A stretch of DNA of 64,000 nucleotides from Candidatus Polarisedimenticolia bacterium (GTDB lineage Bacteria; Acidobacteriota; Polarisedimenticolia; Gp22-AA2): NCBI GenBank assembly GCA_036001465.1, contig DASYUH010000040.1:11466-75465 (forward strand). Reading direction: 5' to 3'. The translations under genes and the position numbers were made by a program. The notes beneath the pieces were generated by a model. It had not been told where the DNA came from. It saw only the letters and a program-made list of their open reading frames with translations, and ran no database searches. This document shows positions 29,130-33,942 of the stretch, piece by piece. The first letter of the stretch is position 1, and every line of letters starts with the position of its first letter.

Positions 29130-30329
29130 TCATGCCGATCCCCGCGCCTCGCCGCGCGCCTCGACGTACATCGGCGAGATGGATCGCAGCCGGCGCACCG
29201 CGCCGTCCACGCGCTCCACGACCTCGTCCACCTCCTCCCGGGTGTTGAAGCGTCCGAGACCGAAGCGGATGGAGGTGACCGCCTGCTCGTCCGTGCGGCC
29301 CATGGCCCGCAAGACATGCGACGGCTCCTTCTTCGCCGAGGTGCAGGCCGACCCGGACGACACGGCGATGCCGTCCAGGGCGGTCATCAGCGACTCCCCC
29401 TCGACGTGGGCGAAGCTGAGGTTGAGATTGTTCGGAAGCCGGTCGACCGGGTGGCCGTTCAGCAGGACATCGTCGAGCCGCCCGACGATCCCCTGGTGCA
29501 GCCGATCGCGCAGCGTCCGGATGCGCCGCGACTCCTCCGGCATCTCGGCGAGCGCGATCTCGGCCGCCGTGCCGAAGCCGACGATGCCCGGGACGTTGAG
29601 CGTCCCGGAGCGCAGGCCGCGCTCGTGTCCGCCTCCGAGCAGGATCGGCTCCAGGACCACGCGCGGGTTCTTGCGGCGCACATAGAGCGCGCCGACCCCC
29701 TTGGGGCCGTACACCTTGTGCGCCGACAGCGACAGGAGGTCGACGCCGGCCGCCTGCACGTCCACGGGAACCTTGCCCGCCGCCTGGGCCGCATCGCTGT
29801 GGAGCAGCACGCCCCTCTCCTTGCAGATGCGGCCGATCTCCTCGAGAGGATGCAGTGTGCCGACCTCGTTGTTGGCGAGCATCAGGGAGACCAGCACGGT
29901 GCGATCGCCGATCGCCCGGCGCAGGTCGTCCGGGTCGACCCGGCCGTGCTCGTCGACCGGCAGGACCGTCACCCGCGCGCCGCGGGTCCTGAGCCTCTCG
30001 ATCGGATCGAGCACCGCGTTGTGCTCGGTGGCCCCCGTGACGACGTGGTCGCCCCTGGCGCGCAGCGCCTCGAAGACTCCGAAAATCGCCAGGTTGTTCG
30101 ACTCGGTGGCCCCCGAGGTGAAGACGATCTCCTTCGGGTCGGCGCCGATCAGGCGGGCCAGCCGGGTGCGCGCCCGCGTCACCGCCTCTTCCGCGCGCCA
30201 CCCGAAGACGTGCGTGCGCGACGCGGCATTGCCGAACTCGCGATCGAAGAACGGCAGCATCGCCTCGACGACCCGCGGATCGACGCGCGTCGTCGCGTGG
30301 TTGTCCATGTACACCGCCATCCACGTCAT
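29130..30329 (-). CDS. iscS: Cysteine desulfurase
   Basis: PLP Lys in SLSAHKVYGPKG and catalytic Cys in SSGSACTS. ATGA overlap with the iscR stop. Confidence 0.9.
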   Translation of the reverse strand: MTWMAVYMDNHATTRVDPRVVEAMLPFFDREFGNAASRTHVFGWRAEEAVTRARTRLARLIGADPKEIVFTSGATESNNLAIFGVFEALRARGDHVVTGATEHNAVLDPIERLRTRGARVTVLPVDEHGRVDPDDLRRAIGDRTVLVSLMLANNEVGTLHPLEEIGRICKERGVLLHSDAAQAAGKVPVDVQAAGVDLLSLSAHKVYGPKGVGALYVRRKNPRVVLEPILLGGGHERGLRSGTLNVPGIVGFGTAAEIALAEMPEESRRIRTLRDRLHQGIVGRLDDVLLNGHPVDRLPNNLNLSFAHVEGESLMTALDGIAVSSGSACTSAKKEPSHVLRAMGRTDEQAVTSIRFGLGRFNTREEVDEVVERVDGAVRRLRSISPMYVEARGEARGSA

Positions 30330-30745
30330 GTGCCGGACTCCTTGAGGGCGTCCAGGTCGCGGAGCGTCGTCCGACCCAGCACCTCGGCGATCTTCTTCTG
30401 CACCTCCAGGACCGGGCGGCCCCCGTCGCACCACCCTGCCCGGCGGCACTGCGCCGACGACTCGTGCGGGCAGCGGCTCCAGACCGGCCCCTCGATCGCC
30501 TCGATGATCTCCCGGATGGTGATGTCGGCCGGCGGCCGGGCGATCTGGTATCCCCCCTTGATGCCGTGATGCGAGGCGACCAGTCCCTTGCGCGCCAGTC
30601 TCTGGAGCAGCTTGGCCATCACGGCCGGCGGGACGCTGTAGCGTGCCGCGATCTCCCGCGCGCTCCGGTACGCTCCCGGCGGCGCCGCGCACAGGTGCTG
30701 AATCGCCAGGAATCCATAATCGGTGCGCCGGGACAGCTTGATCAA
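30326..30745 (-). CDS. iscR: Rrf2-family transcriptional regulator IscR
   Basis: Rrf2 HTH (MIKLSRRTDYGFLAI) and three Cys (SRCPHESSAQCRRAGWC). Confidence 0.85.
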   Translation of the reverse strand: MIKLSRRTDYGFLAIQHLCAAPPGAYRSAREIAARYSVPPAVMAKLLQRLARKGLVASHHGIKGGYQIARPPADITIREIIEAIEGPVWSRCPHESSAQCRRAGWCDGGRPVLEVQKKIAEVLGRTTLRDLDALKESGT

Positions 30746-30846
30746 GATCGCCTCTCAGCTGAGCCGCGCCCGCCCTTGGACGCGCTCAAGAATCGAGAAC
30801 ATATCCGACATGTATCGTCGTATATTACGTGGCGCTGAAAGGCCTG

Positions 30847-31104
30847 TCAAGCGCGGAGCGGCGGGGCGGGCGGGGCAGGCGCGTCGCGCTGAATCCTGCG
30901 GCTCTTGAGGTTCCGGAAGGCCGCATCCTGGTGGACAGGATAGGCCGCGCCCAGGTCAACCCAAAGCTTGAGGACTGTACCCTTGGCCGCGCCCGTCATT
31001 CGGCAGGTCGCCCGGATGGAGTTCCCTTCAATAGCGTCGCGACTACCTGAGCCCTCTTCTCTCTTGTCAGCTTGTTCATGCACTAAGCATGCTTGAGCTG
31101 TCAA
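30847..31104 (-). pseudogene. Possible remnant of a transposase/recombinase HTH (85-codon ORF) at the left edge of the low-GC islet
   Basis: NSIRATCRMTGAAKGTVLKLWVDLG resembles transposase N-terminal HTH segments. No catalytic domain follows. Speculative. Confidence 0.25.
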
Positions 31105-31138
31105 GGAAAGTCAAGCAGCATTTGTAGCGAAATATCAT

Positions 31139-31167
31139 TTGACTTCCTACTTTGTATTGAATAGTAT
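31139..31167 (+). promoter_or_regulatory. Sigma70-like promoter TTGACT-N17-TAGTAT upstream of the Fic gene
   Basis: TTGACT at 31139-31144, 17 nt spacer, TAGTAT at 31162-31167. AAGGGA SD lies 9 nt before the ATG at 31202. Sits in an AT-rich intergenic region. Confidence 0.55.
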
Positions 31168-31201
31168 CACTACGAAATATCTATTTAAGGGATATAACGC
31201 T

Positions 31202-32359
31202 ATGCTATTCAACACACCAAACCTAACCGCGAAAGACTTGGAAGTTGTTGCAAGAATTGATGATATCAAAAAACGCCTTGGCGTAGCAATTCGCGCTCCA
31301 AAGCGATGGATAGGTCTGCTGGCCAGGACCGCACTGGCAAAAGCCATCCAAGGGTCAAACAGCATCGAGGGTTACAACGTATCGATGGACGATGCCATCG
31401 CGGCGGTTGAGGGCGAAGAGCCTTTGGATGCAAAGACAGAGGAATGGCTTGCGGTGACTTCCTACCGCAGGGCTATGACCTACGTATTGCAACTCGCGTC
31501 AGACCCACACTTCGCCTATAGCAACGCAGTCATCAGAAGCCTGCACTTCATGATGCTTGAGTATGACCTTTCAAAACATCCCGGCGGCTGGCGGCCGGGG
31601 CCTATCTTCGTCAGGCGAGAAGCAACGGGAGAAATAGTCTATGAGGGACCACAGGCCGACGAAGTGCCAGCTCTCATGGAAGAGCTCGTCGAATCACTGC
31701 GAAAGGCAGACGCAGTGCCCGATCTGGTCACGGCGGCAATGGCTCACCTGAACCTAGTAATGATTCATCCTTTTTCAGATGGAAACGGAAGGATGGCACG
31801 CTGTCTACAGACGCTTGTTTTGGGTCGGCTTGGCGTTCTGGCCCCGGAGTTTTCTAGCATCGAAGAGTATCTAGGGAGAAACCGCGAGGCTTACTACCAA
31901 GTGCTGGCCTCCGTTGGCAGTCCAACATGGGCTCCTGACAGGGACGCGCATCCGTGGATTCGGTTTTGCATGAGCGCGCATTTCCTCCAGGCTTCACGAG
32001 TCCTTCGCAGAACAAAAGTCCTGGATCAGTTGTGGAGCGCTTTCGAAGAAGAGACGAAAAAGCACAAATTGCCAGACAGATGCATCTTGGCTCTTCTTGA
32101 TGCAACGTTCAGCGGTCGGGTTCGAAATCCAACCTATCGGAAAATGGCTGACATTTCCGATCAGGTAGCTGGCAAGGACCTTAGAGAATTAGTGCGTACT
32201 GGACTGCTAATCGCAGAGGGGGAGAAGCGAGGGCGCTCCTATGTAGTTTCAGATGCAGCCAAGAAGGCATCTGCACGTATCAAGATTCCAAAAATCATCG
32301 AAGACCCCTACGCTGAAGACACCGCATATCTGCCAGGGATCGCGCCAGAAGTCCTATGA
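31202..32359 (+). CDS. Fic-family protein (class II, N-terminal inhibitory motif), likely AMPylase
   Basis: Fic motif HPFSDGNGRMAR. N-terminal SxxxEG inhibitory motif (SNSIEG). Locally low GC. Confidence 0.85.
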   Translation: MLFNTPNLTAKDLEVVARIDDIKKRLGVAIRAPKRWIGLLARTALAKAIQGSNSIEGYNVSMDDAIAAVEGEEPLDAKTEEWLAVTSYRRAMTYVLQLASDPHFAYSNAVIRSLHFMMLEYDLSKHPGGWRPGPIFVRREATGEIVYEGPQADEVPALMEELVESLRKADAVPDLVTAAMAHLNLVMIHPFSDGNGRMARCLQTLVLGRLGVLAPEFSSIEEYLGRNREAYYQVLASVGSPTWAPDRDAHPWIRFCMSAHFLQASRVLRRTKVLDQLWSAFEEETKKHKLPDRCILALLDATFSGRVRNPTYRKMADISDQVAGKDLRELVRTGLLIAEGEKRGRSYVVSDAAKKASARIKIPKIIEDPYAEDTAYLPGIAPEVL

Positions 32360-32578
32360 CTTCCTAGACCATCGTGCCTTTGCCGCCACCCTGGCGATGG
32401 CCTTCCTCTTCTTGGCGCTAAGCCGCGCCGCCCTTGCCTTGCCGCCCTTGAGACCGCCAAGCCGTCCTAAAGCTACCGCCGCAGGGTTCTTTTCCCTGGG
32501 CGGGTCGGATGTGGCTTCCTGGACGATGGATGCGGCCAGCTGATTTGGGTCTGTCGGCTTTCTTGAGCGGTTAGGCAT
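32354..32578 (-). CDS. Small K/R-rich basic protein, putative nucleic-acid binding
   Basis: 74 aa ending GRLGGLKGGKARAARLSAKKRKAIARVAAKARW. Convergent with Fic, overlapping its stop by 6 nt. Function unknown. Confidence 0.35.
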   Translation of the reverse strand: MPNRSRKPTDPNQLAASIVQEATSDPPREKNPAAVALGRLGGLKGGKARAARLSAKKRKAIARVAAKARWSRKS

Positions 32579-32619
32579 GCCTCATGGTAGCATGAGTTCA
32601 ACCATCCAAGGGGGAATCA

Positions 32620-33039
32620 ATGAATCGGCACGGCGGCCTATGCGCGTTTGGACTATTCATGGCGATAGCATTCGGCAGCGTTCACGCGGCTGAAACCGAG
32701 CTAGAAAAACCGAAAGCGGTGAAGGACGGAGGGGTTTATGAGTTCTGCACACCCGATCCATCAAGACCGGCCGTTGGTCGGGACCTATACCAAGCGCTGT
32801 GCATCGCCTATCTGAGAGGATACGTCGACGGATTAGACATATCGTCAACGAAGATGGCGATGCTCACGTGTCTGCCGCCAGAAGGTGTGCGTGGCGACGT
32901 TCTCCAAGCGATAGTTGTCAAATGGCTCCTTCAGAATGAGTCTAGAGTTAAAGGGCAACTTACAACAGGCAAAATCGCAGTCATCGCAGCACTGTTAGAG
33001 GAATACGCCTGTCCTGACGCCACCAACAAGTCAAACTGA
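32620..33039 (+). CDS. Small secreted four-cysteine protein
   Basis: Signal peptide MNRHGGLCAFGLFMAIAFGSVHA. Four Cys. Low GC. Confidence 0.45.
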   Translation: MNRHGGLCAFGLFMAIAFGSVHAAETELEKPKAVKDGGVYEFCTPDPSRPAVGRDLYQALCIAYLRGYVDGLDISSTKMAMLTCLPPEGVRGDVLQAIVVKWLLQNESRVKGQLTTGKIAVIAALLEEYACPDATNKSN

Positions 33040-33942
33040 CCCACTACCGGGAGGAGCGGCGGCTTGCGTGTGCCGCTTCGCATGATAGGAGCTGCGCACG
33101 AGCGGCCCCGCCTCCACGTGGCGGAAGCCGTGCCGGAGAGCCTGGTCCCGCAGCTCGGCGAACTCGTCGGGGGGGTAGTAGCGGACGACGGGAAGATGGG
33201 AGAGCGTCGGCCGGAGATACTGGCCGAGAGTCAGGATCTCGACTCCGGCCTCGGCCAGCGCGGCGAACGTCTCCAGGAGCTCGTCGCGCTCCTCTCCGAG
33301 ACCGACCATGAGCCCGGTCTTCACCAACGGACGCGGCGCCTGATCTCTCCAGACGACCGCCTGGCGCAGGAGGCCCAGGGAACGCTCGAAGTGCGACCCC
33401 TGGCGCGCCTCCGGGTAGAGGCGGGGCACCGTCTCGATGTTGTGGCTGAAGGTGACCGGGCCCTCCGCCAGGATCGCGTCGAGCGGCCGCTCGACCCCGC
33501 GGAAGTCGGAGGTCAGGACCTCCACCTCGCATTCGGGGTTGCGGGATCTGACGGCGCGGATCACCGAAGCGACGTGCCCCGCGCCGCCGTCCGGCAGGTC
33601 GTCCCGGTCGACCATGGTGAGGACGGCGTGCTCCAGCTCCAGATGGCGCACCGCCTCGGCGACGTGCTCCGGCTCGTCCGGGTCGACGGCCCGGGGGCGC
33701 CCCGTGGCCACCGCGCAGAAACCGCAGCGCCGGGTGCAGGTGTCCCCGAGGATCATGAACGTGGCGGTCCGGTCGCCCCAGCATTCGTAGATGTTGGGGC
33801 AGCGGGCCTCCTGGCAGACGGTGTGGAGCTTCAGGCCCTGCACCATGCGGTGCAGGTCGCGGTAGTTCTCCCCGGTGTCGAGGCGAATCTTCAGCCAGGG
33901 GGGCTTCGGCCCCGGCAGCTCCGTCCGTGGCAGGCCGGACAT
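33031..33942 (-). CDS. lipA: Lipoyl synthase
   Basis: Radical-SAM CxxxCxxC (CTRRCGFC) plus N-terminal Cys cluster CQEARCPNIYEC. ATGA overlap with lipB. Confidence 0.95.
   Translation of the reverse strand: MSGLPRTELPGPKPPWLKIRLDTGENYRDLHRMVQGLKLHTVCQEARCPNIYECWGDRTATFMILGDTCTRRCGFCAVATGRPRAVDPDEPEHVAEAVRHLELEHAVLTMVDRDDLPDGGAGHVASVIRAVRSRNPECEVEVLTSDFRGVERPLDAILAEGPVTFSHNIETVPRLYPEARQGSHFERSLGLLRQAVVWRDQAPRPLVKTGLMVGLGEERDELLETFAALAEAGVEILTLGQYLRPTLSHLPVVRYYPPDEFAELRDQALRHGFRHVEAGPLVRSSYHAKRHTQAAAPPGSGSV

What the first reader, a model, noticed from the sequence alone, without database searches (positions are those of the whole stretch)
30746..33040. Low-GC 2.3 kb islet with a class II Fic protein, inserted between iscR and lipA
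Base composition drops visibly from about 30750 to 33040 (AT-rich intergenic DNA and codons) in an otherwise ~70 % GC window. The islet encodes four things. First, a possible transposase-HTH remnant (30847-31104, minus strand). Second, a Fic protein with an intact HPFSDGNGRMAR motif and an N-terminal inhibitory SxxxEG motif (SNSIEG), driven by a near-consensus TTGACT-17-TAGTAT promoter. Third, a convergent K/R-rich 74 aa protein overlapping the Fic stop. Fourth, a small secreted four-Cys protein whose 3' end overlaps lipA by 9 nt. This looks like a horizontally acquired cassette, possibly a toxin or effector (AMPylase) with accessory proteins. No integrase or tRNA is present.
Basis: partly seen in the sequence, partly recalled or inferred. 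Interest (0 to 1): 0.6.

Follow-up and report, generated by a model that had tools for sequence, protein, structure and literature searches.

The report
Decayed IS1-type transposon carrying defence genes
The low-GC islet is the crippled remains of a small IS1-family transposon that carried in a SoFic-type Fic enzyme (a candidate anti-phage toxin) and a Rap1a-like immunity protein, and it belongs to a widespread, apparently undescribed group of mini-transposons that carry defence genes between bacteria.

Summary
Window 30881-33048 has GC 0.54 against 0.695 ± 0.017 elsewhere, and GC3 0.54-0.68 against 0.90-0.93 in host genes. In 12 related Acidobacteriota MAGs, lipA and the Rrf2 (iscR-like) gene are directly adjacent, so the islet is a lineage-specific insertion.

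The vehicle is now identified. The right edge (33030-33048) is a terminal inverted repeat, GGTAGTGGGTCAGTTTGA. The left edge lies inside a frameshifted, 3'-truncated IS1-family transposase gene (31079-30881). The "K/R-rich 74-aa protein" (p74) is not a Fic accessory. It is the hallmark backbone gene of this transposon family, whose layout is IR–p74–[cargo]–transposase–IR. I found 33 IR-bounded relatives of 1.3-4.7 kb. Of 28 checked, 17 have perfect 8-bp target duplications. Two cultured examples sit on Mesorhizobium and Acidiphilium plasmids.

Cargo in the relatives is mostly toxin-antitoxin or anti-phage modules (RosmerTA, PD-λ-2, PD-λ-5, methylase/restriction genes, ParE, Panacea). In this window the cargo is a class II Fic and a Rap1a/Tai4a-like periplasmic protein. 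The Fic has intact catalytic and inhibitory motifs and matches PADLOC SoFic at 2e-50.

The element is immobilised because its second IR and most of the transposase are gone.

The parts
33030..33048 (-). Left terminal inverted repeat (IRL) of the IS1-family element, GGTAGTGGGTCAGTTTGAC read on the minus strand. It forms the right-hand junction with host DNA. It supplies the last codons and the stop of lipA, and it contains the stop codon of the Rap1a-like gene.
   Evidence: It is the only match in the window, with 0 expected in 100 shuffles. The same 19-mer occurs as inverted pairs around p74 in 33 related loci. Homology to the closest relative L014 ends at this position.
32620..33039 (+). Cargo in slot 1 (between IRL and p74): a 139-aa Rap1a/Tai4a-like protein. 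It has an N-terminal signal-peptide-like segment (…AFGSVHA|AE) and four Cys in the mature part. No effector gene is next to it, so it is an orphan immunity-type gene.
   Evidence: Pfam PF18602 Rap1a scores 30.7 bits against a cut-off of 27.7. NCBI names the identical protein 'Rap1a/Tai family immunity protein'. The sibling element L069 has a 53-aa membrane ORF in this slot instead.
32354..32578 (-). p74: the conserved small basic protein that marks the backbone of this transposon family. Its conserved core is KNPAAVALGRLGGLKGGKARA..LS...R..IA..AA..RW. Its function is inferred only, possibly an InsA-like regulator or end-binding protein.
   Evidence: It has more than 8000 homologues at 65-86% identity with no Pfam family. 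Of 55 unique loci, 45 have the IR upstream and 30 have a full-length IS1-like transposase downstream on the same strand. It is present in the cargo-free element L100. The AlphaFold model has pLDDT 66 with four helices and no PDB fold match.
31202..32359 (+). Cargo in slot 2 (between p74 and the transposase): a 385-aa class II Fic protein of the SoFic type. The inhibitory motif is S52-N-S-I-E56-G57 and the catalytic motif is H189-PFSDGNGRMA-R200. A C-terminal domain is also covered by the SoFic model.
   Evidence: Pfam Fic 5e-15. PADLOC SoFic 2.4e-50 over residues 14-351. The closest solved structures are 4RGL, 8UQU and SoFic 3EQX/3ZCN. Both motifs are invariant in 15 homologues. It is below the NCBIfam SoFic equivalog cut-off.
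31139..31167 (+). Sigma-70-like promoter TTGACT-17-TAGTAT for Fic. It lies in the 122-nt AT-rich divergent spacer (GC 0.36) between the Fic and transposase start codons.
   Evidence: Consensus scan, 9 of 12 positions matched. The promoter region is conserved with the 80%-identical Fic locus L009, with homology over window 31125-32365.
30881..31079 (-). Pseudogene of the IS1-family transposase. The start codon is at 31079 (MNKLTREKRAQVVATLL…). There is a frameshift near codon 17, then the HTH region (EGNSIRATCRMTGAAKGTVLKL…RRIQ). It is cut off after about codon 67. About 200 codons and the second inverted repeat are missing.
   Evidence: tblastn with an intact 275-aa transposase aligns its residues 17-66 to 31032-30883 at 66% identity. 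There are 731 homologues; full-length ones hit Pfam DDE_Tnp_IS1 and the NCBIfam IS1 family model.
30822..30850 (-). Host promoter of the Rrf2-nifS-iscA operon (TTGACA-17-TAATAT), followed by a conserved palindrome at 30806-30820. This is ancestral DNA just outside the left junction and is not part of the islet.
   Evidence: Promoter scan, 10 of 12 positions matched. It is conserved in L014-L021.
33031..33942 (-). Host lipA (lipoyl synthase). The insertion hit its extreme 3' end, so the last residues (…PPG-SGSV*) are encoded by the inverted repeat.
   Evidence: Pfam LIAS_N and Radical_SAM. Comparison of the C-terminus with L014 and L015.
30326..30745 (-). Host Rrf2-family regulator (iscR-like), the other flank of the insertion.
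   Evidence: Pfam Rrf2 2.4e-29. It lies 80-125 nt from lipA in 12 relatives.

Best explanation
The islet is a degenerate copy of an IS1-family transporter IS, that is, an insertion sequence that carries passenger genes.

**Structure of intact relatives.** Intact relatives are laid out as IR (GGTAGTG(G/T)(G/C)TCAGTTTGAA) – p74 – [cargo] – about 275-aa IS1-like DDE transposase – IR. They make 8-bp target duplications.

**What happened here.**
1. One such element came from a donor of mid GC content.
2. It inserted into the last codons of lipA in one Polarisedimenticolia lineage. In relatives, lipA sits next to the Rrf2/nifS operon.
3. It brought two passengers on the strand opposite to p74 and the transposase. 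One is a SoFic-type class II Fic with its own promoter, in the p74–transposase slot. The other is a Rap1a/Tai4a-like periplasmic protein, in the IR–p74 slot.
4. The element then lost the 3' two-thirds of the transposase gene and the second IR, and the remaining transposase stub is frameshifted. It is now fixed in place.

**Inferred, not shown.**
- The Fic is an auto-inhibited AMP-transferase. Like SoFic, it would block translation by modifying EF-Tu when activated, for example on phage infection. That would make it a one-gene abortive-infection module.
- The Rap1a-like protein would neutralise an incoming Tae4/Ssp1-type cell-wall amidase in the periplasm.
- p74 would be a backbone regulator of the transposon, in the position that insA holds in IS1. 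It would not be a Fic antitoxin.
For: **Insertion.** E2-lipB-lipA-Rrf2-nifS-iscA synteny with an 80-125-nt lipA–Rrf2 gap holds in 12 relatives whose LipA is 68-90% identical. None carries islet genes or the IR. Composition differs sharply from the host.

**Element ends.**
- The IR sits at 33030-33048, exactly where homology to L014 stops.
- The left junction lies inside the transposase gene.

**Family.**
- Of 55 unique p74 loci, 45 have the IR upstream, 33 have both IRs, and 30 have an intact transposase.
- Of 28 complete elements, 17 have perfect 8-bp direct repeats outside the IRs. These include 4-4.7-kb cargo-bearing elements and transposase-less ones.
- The transposase's best family match is IS1: NCBIfam 55-70 bits, and Pfam DDE_Tnp_IS1 at 30 bits, above the gathering score of 24.1.
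- Homologues on plasmids are annotated 'IS1 family transposase'.
- Complete copies with IRs and target duplications occur in Mesorhizobium loti CP050295.1 and Acidiphilium multivorum NZ_CP041717.1.

**Same architecture in the window.**
- The cargo is convergent with p74 and abuts its stop codon.
- The divergent spacer to the transposase ATG is 122 nt, against 109-163 nt in intact copies.

**Mobility of this Fic+p74 unit.** The sibling L069/L128/L129 is 91% identical at nucleotide level over window 32167-32602. It sits in different host DNA and has different slot-1 cargo.

**Cargo theme.** RosmerTA (RmrA up to 1e-151, RmrT 1e-53), PD-Lambda-2_B, PD-Lambda-5 A+B, methylase-restriction fusion, Panacea and ParE.

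**Fic.** PADLOC SoFic 2.4e-50 and conserved motifs. For SoFic biology, EcSofic is toxic and protects against T5 (PMC12249575), and SoFic AMPylates EF-Tu switch I (bioRxiv 10.64898/2026.07.09.737422).
Against: - Only one IR and no target-site duplication are present in the window. Transposition at this site is therefore inferred from relatives, not shown directly.
- Host DNA resumes at the exact nucleotide after the insertion point. That requires either a coincidentally placed deletion or an aberrant insertion.
- The transposases fall below the NCBIfam IS1 cut-off (55-70 bits against 100), so they are a divergent branch.
- The Fic is far below the SoFic equivalog cut-off (64.9 bits against 550). 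No Fic relative was found in other p74 elements apart from the sibling.
- Anti-phage activity, the AMPylation target, the Rap1a-like function and the role of p74 are all untested.
- The Rap1a assignment rests on one Pfam hit just above threshold. The structure model was unusable (pLDDT 42).
- The cargo census is small: 56 ORFs from loci found through a viral-contig collection, which may bias the content.
Confidence: 0.85

Rival explanations
1. A Fic toxin–antitoxin cassette. On this view the 74-aa basic protein downstream of Fic is its antitoxin, as the 47-aa AS1 is for E. coli Sofic, and the whole islet is one functional module.
For: The p74 gene sits immediately downstream of Fic and overlaps it tail-to-tail. 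A small downstream protein neutralises EcSofic toxicity (PMC12249575).
Against: - p74 homologues occur with unrelated cargo (RosmerTA, PD-λ-5, methylases) and in a cargo-free element.
- 0 of 15 independent Fic-homologue loci (57-80% identity) carry p74.
- p74 lacks an (S/T)xxxE(G/N) motif; it has SIVQEA instead.
- The Fic carries its own inhibitory helix motif.
- p74 is convergent with Fic, not co-transcribed with it.
Confidence: 0.07
2. A secreted Fic effector with its immunity protein. On this view Fic is delivered to other cells by a type III, IV or VI secretion system, and the small secreted Cys protein protects the producer.
For: Several Fic proteins are effectors: weak NCBIfam hits to XopAC and VopS cover the catalytic core only. 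The neighbouring protein belongs to a T6SS immunity family.
Against: - The full-length architecture matches cytoplasmic SoFic-type proteins, not effectors.
- Fic has no signal or delivery domain and no secretion genes in the islet.
- Rap1a-type proteins neutralise periplasmic amidases, not Fic enzymes (PMC3852654).
- The sibling element has the same Fic without the Rap1a-like gene.
Confidence: 0.03
3. Remnant of a prophage, integrative island or other non-IS element, with the transposase fragment being a secondary passenger.
For: p74 homologues are frequent in contigs classed as viral: 58 loci in IMG/VR. There is a weak PHROG hit.
Against: - There is no integrase, tRNA or phage structural gene.
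- The islet ends exactly at the IS-type inverted repeat.
- Relatives are compact 1.3-4.7-kb units with 8-bp duplications.
- The transposase is almost absent from cultured phage genomes, with 1 distant hit.
Confidence: 0.04

Closest known systems
IS1 family insertion sequences and 'transporter IS' (tIS), meaning IS derivatives that carry passenger genes
   Same: - DDE transposase whose best family match is IS1.
- Ends of the form GGnnnTG. That this is the IS1 signature is my recollection of the ISfinder family description, not something tested here.
- 8-bp target duplications.
- A small gene next to the left end, in the position of insA.
- Passenger genes inside the inverted repeats. The tIS concept is described in PMC9330008 and PMC7986276.
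   Different: - The transposase is a single ORF with its own N-terminal HTH. It has no insA/insB frameshift fusion and scores below NCBI's IS1 cut-off.
- There is a highly conserved 70-80-aa basic protein (p74) with no Pfam family.
- There are three cargo slots, and the cargo is mostly toxin-antitoxin or anti-phage modules.
- The window copy is truncated and has a single end.
- I could not query ISfinder, so the family may already have a name there.
SoFic (Shewanella oneidensis Fic; the PADLOC/DefenseFinder 'SoFic' single-gene anti-phage system; E. coli Sofic–AS1)
   Same: - Class II Fic with an N-terminal inhibitory (S/T)xxxE(G/N) helix motif and the canonical HPFx(D/E)GNGRxxR motif.
- About 370-390 aa with a C-terminal domain.
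- Full-length match to the PADLOC SoFic model.
- Located on a mobile element among defence-type cargo.
   Different: - Pairwise E-values to the SoFic structures are only about 1e-15, and it is far below the equivalog cut-off.
- No AS1-like partner was identified.
- Activity, target and phage protection are untested.
- The host is an uncultured acidobacterium.
Rap1a / Tai4a type VI immunity proteins (Serratia marcescens Rap1a; orphan copies in Cronobacter)
   Same: - Small secreted protein, predicted to be helical and containing Cys, that passes the Pfam Rap1a threshold.
- It occurs without a cognate effector, like the reported orphan immunity genes (PMC3852654).
   Different: - It is very divergent: no PDB sequence match and no homologue outside its own cluster in the word-indexed search.
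- It is carried as transposon cargo.
- No T6SS context was examined beyond the islet.
IS1595-family transporter IS
   Same: A Fic homologue (60% identity) in a Gemmatimonadales MAG (L010) sits inside a 3.4-kb lower-GC segment. That segment has an IS1595-family transposase, 17-nt inverted repeats and flanking direct repeats. The same Fic family therefore rides on a second IS type.
   Different: The transposase is different (Zn-ribbon plus DDE_Tnp_IS1595), the repeats are different, and there is no p74.

Membership tests
Fic/Fido, class II (SoFic type) | Catalytic motif HxFx(D/E)GNGRxxR | tested here: met
   HPFSDGNGRMAR at residues 189-200. H189, P190, G194-R197 and R200 are invariant in 15 homologues.
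Fic/Fido, class II (SoFic type) | Inhibitory motif (S/T)xxxE(G/N) in the same chain, N-terminal to the Fic core | tested here: met
   SNSIEG at residues 52-57. It aligns with IQASLAIEN of 4RGL. S52, N53, I55, E56 and G57 are invariant.
Fic/Fido, class II (SoFic type) | Full-length similarity to the SoFic defence family | tested here: met
   PADLOC PDLC03963 SoFic, 2.4e-50, residues 14-351 against model positions 24-353 of 361.
Fic/Fido, class II (SoFic type) | Orthology to S. oneidensis SoFic (NCBIfam equivalog NF046030, cut-off 550 bits) | tested here: not met
   64.9 bits. It has the same architecture but is not an equivalog.
Fic/Fido, class II (SoFic type) | AMPylation activity, toxicity on loss of the inhibitory Glu, and phage protection | not testable with these tools
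   Requires experiments.
IS1-family transporter IS | IS1-type DDE transposase | tested here: inconclusive
   The window keeps only about 66 N-terminal codons. Intact relatives score Pfam DDE_Tnp_IS1 at 30 bits, above the gathering score of 24.1. Their NCBIfam IS1 score is 55-70 bits, below the cut-off of 100. RefSeq homologues are named 'IS1 family transposase'.
IS1-family transporter IS | Terminal inverted repeats at both ends | tested here: not met
   The window has one IR only, at 33030-33048. Relatives have both in 33 of 55 loci. The window copy is therefore a truncated derivative, not an intact member.
IS1-family transporter IS | Target-site duplication of 8-9 bp | tested here: not met
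   There is no second copy of CTCCTCCC in the window. The feature is met in 17 of 28 complete relatives and in both plasmid copies.
IS1-family transporter IS | Passenger genes located inside the element ends | tested here: met
   Fic and the Rap1a-like gene lie between the IR and the transposase stub. The same slots are filled with other genes in relatives.
Rap1a/Tai4a T6SS immunity proteins | Match to Pfam PF18602 above the gathering score | tested here: met
   30.7 bits against 27.7, covering model positions 6-90 of 90. NCBI names it 'Rap1a/Tai family immunity protein'.
Rap1a/Tai4a T6SS immunity proteins | Periplasmic location, five-helix fold and a disulfide | tested here: inconclusive
   A signal-peptide-like N-terminus and four Cys in the mature part can be read from the sequence. 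The single-sequence model has pLDDT 42 and is unusable. There is no PDB sequence match.
Rap1a/Tai4a T6SS immunity proteins | Adjacent cognate Tae4/Ssp1 effector | tested here: not met
   The 2.2-kb islet has no further ORF with a family hit, so this would be an orphan immunity gene.
Fic toxin plus small-protein antitoxin (class I VbhT–VbhA; Sofic–AS1) | Small partner carrying the inhibitory (S/T)xxxE(G/N) motif, or conserved co-occurrence with the Fic | tested here: not met
   p74 has SIVQEA with no G/N after the Glu. 0 of 15 independent Fic loci have p74. p74 is found with unrelated cargo or with none.

The most novel reading that the evidence does not exclude
The window copy is one decayed member of a very abundant, cross-phylum family of IS1-derived mini-transposons. 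More than 8000 p74 homologues exist, with hosts in Acidobacteriota, NC10, Nitrospirota, Thermodesulfovibrionia and Alphaproteobacteria. Each element has a conserved small basic protein and defined cargo slots, and the family acts as an autonomous shuttle for single anti-phage or toxin-antitoxin modules. Cargo 3' ends abut the p74 stop codon within 0-10 nt in almost every element, which hints at a specific cargo-capture or exchange site rather than random accretion. This would make them the smallest self-mobile defence carriers known. I found no description of the family in the literature I could search.
Probability: 0.35. Interest if true: 0.7.

Novelty: new variant of a known kind. Interest (0 to 1): 0.55.

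Why it matters
For this genome, the result explains an odd low-GC patch next to core Fe-S and lipoate genes. It is a dead transposon that left behind two candidate protective genes, one against phage and one against a rival's cell-wall toxin.

More broadly, it points to a compact type of vehicle, 1.3-4.7 kb with proven target duplications, that moves single defence or toxin-antitoxin systems across phyla. The vehicle can be recognised by a 19-bp repeat and a 75-aa marker protein. That gives a simple handle for mining new defence genes: whatever sits between p74 and the transposase. It also provides cultured test cases on Mesorhizobium and Acidiphilium plasmids for studying how IS elements capture cargo.

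Tried and rejected
- **Flanking repeats within the window.** Only chance-level short repeats turned up. The IR was recognised only after comparison with related loci.
- **Family searches on the 85-aa ORF.** Pfam, NCBIfam, PADLOC and PHROGs gave nothing, even at E ≤ 10. The exhaustive representative search solved it.
- **p74 function.**
  - There was no PDB sequence match.
  - The model was of moderate quality with no fold match.
  - There was no tblastn hit on plasmids, although a diverged homologue annotated 'histone H1' is present in the Mesorhizobium element.
- **Rap1a-like protein.**
  - The single-sequence structure was unusable.
  - It has no relatives in viral contigs.
  - It has none beyond its own cluster.
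- **Fic in viral contigs.** None found.
- **The lipA–Rrf2 gap as a defence hotspot.** Rejected. The other inserts there (L024, L025) are secreted Cys-rich repeat proteins at native GC.
- **Literature.** There were no hits for ISMhu11, for IS1-family passenger genes with defence, or for 'IS1 family transposase' plus anti-phage.
- **Whole-element inverted repeats found by generic search in four loci.** This missed the true IRs. A targeted flank-against-flank alignment found them.

Full report
**1. Observation**

The composition drop is real and large.
- The 1-kb bins 31001-33000 have GC 0.52-0.54. All other bins of the window lie between 0.64 and 0.74.
- With refined borders (30873-33048) the GC is 0.539. 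The 288 equally long windows elsewhere average 0.695 ± 0.017, with a minimum of 0.641.
- Third-position GC is 0.54 (Fic), 0.55 (139-aa ORF) and 0.68 (74-aa ORF). The flanking genes nifS, Rrf2, lipA, lipB and E2 have 0.90-0.93.
- All four ORFs are present at the stated coordinates.
- The Fic has HPFSDGNGRMAR (residues 189-200) and SNSIEG (residues 52-57).
- The TTGACT-17-TAGTAT site is at 31139-31167.
- No tRNA gene is present.

**2. Acquired, not ancestral**

The source is a 227-kb JGI metagenome contig. Seven further contigs from other samples carry the identical arrangement. NCBI's name for the identical 139-aa protein places the organism in Candidatus Polarisedimenticolia, Acidobacteriota.

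A LipA-based scan of one genome per species returned 17 relatives with LipA 68-90% identical. In 12 of them the gene order is E2-lipB-lipA-Rrf2-nifS-iscA-deoxyhypusine-synthase-like, with only 80-125 nt between lipA and Rrf2. None encodes Fic, the 74-aa protein, the 139-aa protein or the 85-aa ORF.

Nucleotide alignment with the closest relative (L014, about 90% identity) shows homology running up to window position about 33048 on the lipA side. It resumes at about 30880 on the Rrf2 side. It holds the conserved Rrf2 promoter TTGACA-17-TAATAT (30850-30822) and a conserved palindrome.

**3. The vehicle**

The 85-aa minus-strand ORF had no hit in four HMM libraries. An exhaustive search gave 731 homologues. 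Its residues 24-74 match the N-terminal HTH of proteins up to about 280 aa long. Full-length members hit Pfam DDE_Tnp_IS1, and their best NCBIfam model is the IS1 family transposase.

In the window the gene starts at 31079 (MNKLTREKRAQVVATLL…). It is frameshifted near codon 17 and breaks off after …RRIQ at about 30881, where intact proteins continue CDEIW….

**4. The 74-aa protein (p74) belongs to the transposon, not to Fic**

p74 has more than 8000 homologues at 65-86% identity. They are 70-90 aa long, have no Pfam family and come from many phyla. It has a strikingly conserved core, KNPAAVALGRLGGLKGGKARA..LS...R..IA..AA..RW. There are 58 loci in IMG/VR.

tblastn on the p74 loci showed the following.
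- 38 of 68 also carry the transposase HTH, 1-3 kb downstream of p74 on the same strand. This is the same relative arrangement as in the window.
- With an intact 275-aa transposase as query, 30 of 55 unique loci have a full-length copy downstream.

Aligning the flank upstream of p74 against the reverse complement of the flank downstream of the transposase revealed a conserved terminal inverted repeat, GGTAGTG(G/T)(G/C)TCAGTTTGAA.
- It is present upstream of p74 in 45 of 55 unique loci.
- It occurs as an inverted pair in 33 of 55.
- Complete elements measure 1282-4669 bp. The smallest autonomous one (L100, 1365 bp) is just IR-p74-transposase-IR.
- 17 of 28 complete elements are flanked by perfect 8-bp direct repeats immediately outside the IRs. 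These include 4.1-4.7-kb cargo-bearing copies and transposase-less derivatives.

These are therefore units that transposed whole.

Two copies sit on plasmids of cultured bacteria, with perfect IRs and 8-bp duplications.
- In Mesorhizobium loti 582 (CP050295.1) the p74 homologue is annotated 'histone H1' and the transposase 'IS1 family transposase'.
- The second copy is in Acidiphilium multivorum JZ-6 (NZ_CP041717.1).

**5. The window's right junction is that inverted repeat**

The reverse complement of 33030-33048 is GGTAGTGGGTCAGTTTGAC. It is the only match in the 64 kb, with none in 100 shuffles. It begins exactly where homology to the empty site in L014 ends. It supplies the last codons of lipA (…SGSV*) and contains the stop codon of the 139-aa ORF.

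The islet therefore reads, on the minus strand:

IR – [139-aa gene, opposite strand] – p74 – [Fic, opposite strand] – transposase stub.

The layout matches intact relatives.
- Cargo between p74 and the transposase is usually on the opposite strand. Its 3' end lies within 0-10 nt of the p74 stop; here the overlap is 6 nt.
- The divergent spacer to the transposase ATG is 109-163 nt in relatives and 122 nt here.
- The IR lies 45-92 nt from p74 in 34 of 45 loci. It is further away, with extra cargo in between, in 11 of 45. Here the distance is 451 nt and holds the 139-aa gene.

No second IR and no second copy of the expected target duplication (CTCCTCCC) exist in the window. Host DNA resumes at the very nucleotide after the insertion point. 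I cannot say whether this came from a deletion that ended at the IS boundary or from an aberrant insertion. Either way, the copy is immobile.

**6. This particular Fic+p74 unit has moved**

Contigs L069/L128/L129 are 91% identical at nucleotide level to window 32167-32602. Their Fic C-terminus is 97% identical and their p74 is 86% identical. They have a degenerate IR (GCTGGTGGGTCAGTTTGGA), a 53-aa membrane ORF in place of the 139-aa gene, and different flanking host DNA. The 139-aa gene is therefore an exchangeable slot-1 passenger, with the swap boundary at window 32602/32603.

An 80%-identical Fic (L009) shares only window 31125-32365, that is, promoter plus gene. It has no p74 or transposase. 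This probably delimits the Fic cargo module.

**7. The cargo**

*Fic.*
- Pfam Fic 5e-15.
- PADLOC SoFic 2.4e-50, nearly end to end.
- The closest solved structures are 4RGL, 8UQU and SoFic 3EQX/3ZCN, and the inhibitory motif aligns with them.
- Both motifs are invariant in 15 homologues of 56-80% identity.
- It is not an equivalog of S. oneidensis SoFic: 64.9 bits against 550.
- Homologues at about 60% identity are spread over Rokubacteria, Gemmatimonadota, Thermoanaerobaculia, Acidobacteriota and Betaproteobacteria. Others at about 42-45% identity are on Streptomyces plasmids.

Published work provides the functional model. E. coli Sofic is toxic, is described as protecting against T5, and is counteracted by a 47-aa downstream protein, AS1 (PMC12249575). 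[quoted passage not shown] That the window's Fic works the same way is inference.

*The 139-aa protein.*
- It passes the Pfam Rap1a threshold, 30.7 bits against 27.7, and NCBI names it a Rap1a/Tai family immunity protein.
- It has a signal-peptide-like N-terminus and four Cys in the mature part.
- Rap1a (Tai4a) proteins are periplasmic, disulfide-containing helical dimers that neutralise Ssp1/Tae4 amidases. Orphan copies are known (PMC3852654).
- The structure model was too poor to test the fold.

**8. Cargo in the relatives**

Of 56 non-backbone ORFs of at least 100 aa from 28 elements, hits were as follows.
- RosmerTA antitoxin RmrA (HTH plus M78 peptidase): 6-7 ORFs, best 1e-151.
- PD-Lambda-2_B: 4 ORFs.
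- RmrT: 2 ORFs.
- PD-Lambda-5 A+B in L083: 1e-123 and 3e-110.
- An N6/N4 methylase fused to an Mrr-like nuclease in L122.
- A D12 methylase, two Panacea-domain proteins, ParE, P63C and an AAA ATPase.

RosmerTA systems are experimentally shown anti-phage TA systems (PMC10440598). A SoFic-type gene fits this cargo theme. The sample is small and came mostly from a viral-contig collection, so the proportions are only indicative.

**9. Rivals**

- *TA pair (Fic plus p74).* The distribution data argue against it. None of 15 independent Fic loci has p74. p74 occurs with other cargo or with none. p74 also lacks the inhibitory motif.
- *Secreted effector plus immunity.* This does not fit the cytoplasmic SoFic architecture. 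The Rap1a-like gene is also absent from the sibling element.
- *Prophage or island remnant.* This does not fit the IS-type end, the compact relatives with target duplications, or the lack of integrase, tRNA or phage genes.

**10. Novelty and limits**

Passenger-carrying IS (tIS) are a known category (PMC9330008, PMC7986276). IS1, SoFic and Rap1a are all known. What I could not find described is this IS1-like group: its conserved p74 gene, its defined cargo slots, and its load of defence and toxin-antitoxin genes.

I could not query ISfinder. From memory, its IS1 family table lists a subgroup with lengths up to about 4.6 kb, so the group may already be catalogued there.

The window copy itself is a dead remnant. 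Its interest lies in what it points to.

Noticed in passing
L010 5822-9195 (Gemmatimonadales MAG DASWGV010000129.1): A 60%-identical Fic homologue lies with a 67-aa K/R-rich ORF, a 137-aa ORF and an IS1595-family transposase. They sit inside 17-nt inverted repeats, in a lower-GC segment flanked by a 13-nt direct repeat (TTGCATTTCGGAC). The same Fic family therefore rides on a second, different IS type.
   Followed up: partly
window 30880/30881 (left junction) and 33048/33049 (right junction): Host DNA resumes at exactly the nucleotide that follows the insertion point in the empty site of L014. There is no second inverted repeat and no 8-bp target duplication. Either a deletion happened to end at the IS boundary, or the insertion was aberrant or one-ended.
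   Followed up: partly
L024 6100-10700 and L025 6900-8190: In two more distant relatives the lipA–Rrf2 gap holds one or two genes for secreted, Cys-rich repeat proteins (351-1053 aa) at native GC. Other DNA has therefore also entered this intergenic site.
   Followed up: partly
window 30806-30820 and the same position in L014-L021: A conserved palindrome (CGACGATACATGTCG) lies directly downstream of the -10 box of the Rrf2 promoter. It is probably the Rrf2 operator, although the terminator scan listed it as terminator-like.
   Followed up: no
L118 4439-6383, L126 3122-4729, L124 4913-6194: These elements have both inverted repeats, p74 and cargo but no transposase. Two of them have 8-bp target duplications, so they are non-autonomous derivatives that were apparently mobilised in trans. 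They keep p74.
   Followed up: partly
nearly all complete elements, e.g. L075 5231/5237, L087, L088, L104, L106; window 32354-32359: The 3' end of the cargo abuts the p74 stop codon within 0-10 nt, with no conserved DNA beyond the stop. This is either extreme compaction or a defined cargo-capture junction.
   Followed up: partly
L130 2075-2284 (Mesorhizobium loti CP050295.1, QND69618.1): The p74 homologue in a cultured strain is annotated 'histone H1'. This is a composition-driven misnomer that hides the family in databases.
   Followed up: yes
L131 4883-5721 (Acidiphilium multivorum NZ_CP041717.1): A RES-domain toxin and Xre-antitoxin pair sits immediately outside the right inverted repeat of the element.
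   Followed up: no
P0242 (3052 aa, from the representative search): One protein contains 11 matched copies of the IS1-like HTH segment. This is an odd repeat protein or an assembly or gene-calling artefact.
   Followed up: no
L049 3113-3337 and 4001-4225: Two 74-aa p74-like genes lie 660 nt apart on opposite strands, next to a 5'-truncated transposase. This suggests nested or tandem decayed elements.
   Followed up: no
window 31139-33039, + strand: Fic and the Rap1a-like gene are on the same strand. They are 260 nt apart, with no predicted terminator between them, so the Fic promoter may drive both genes while transcribing antisense through p74.
   Followed up: no
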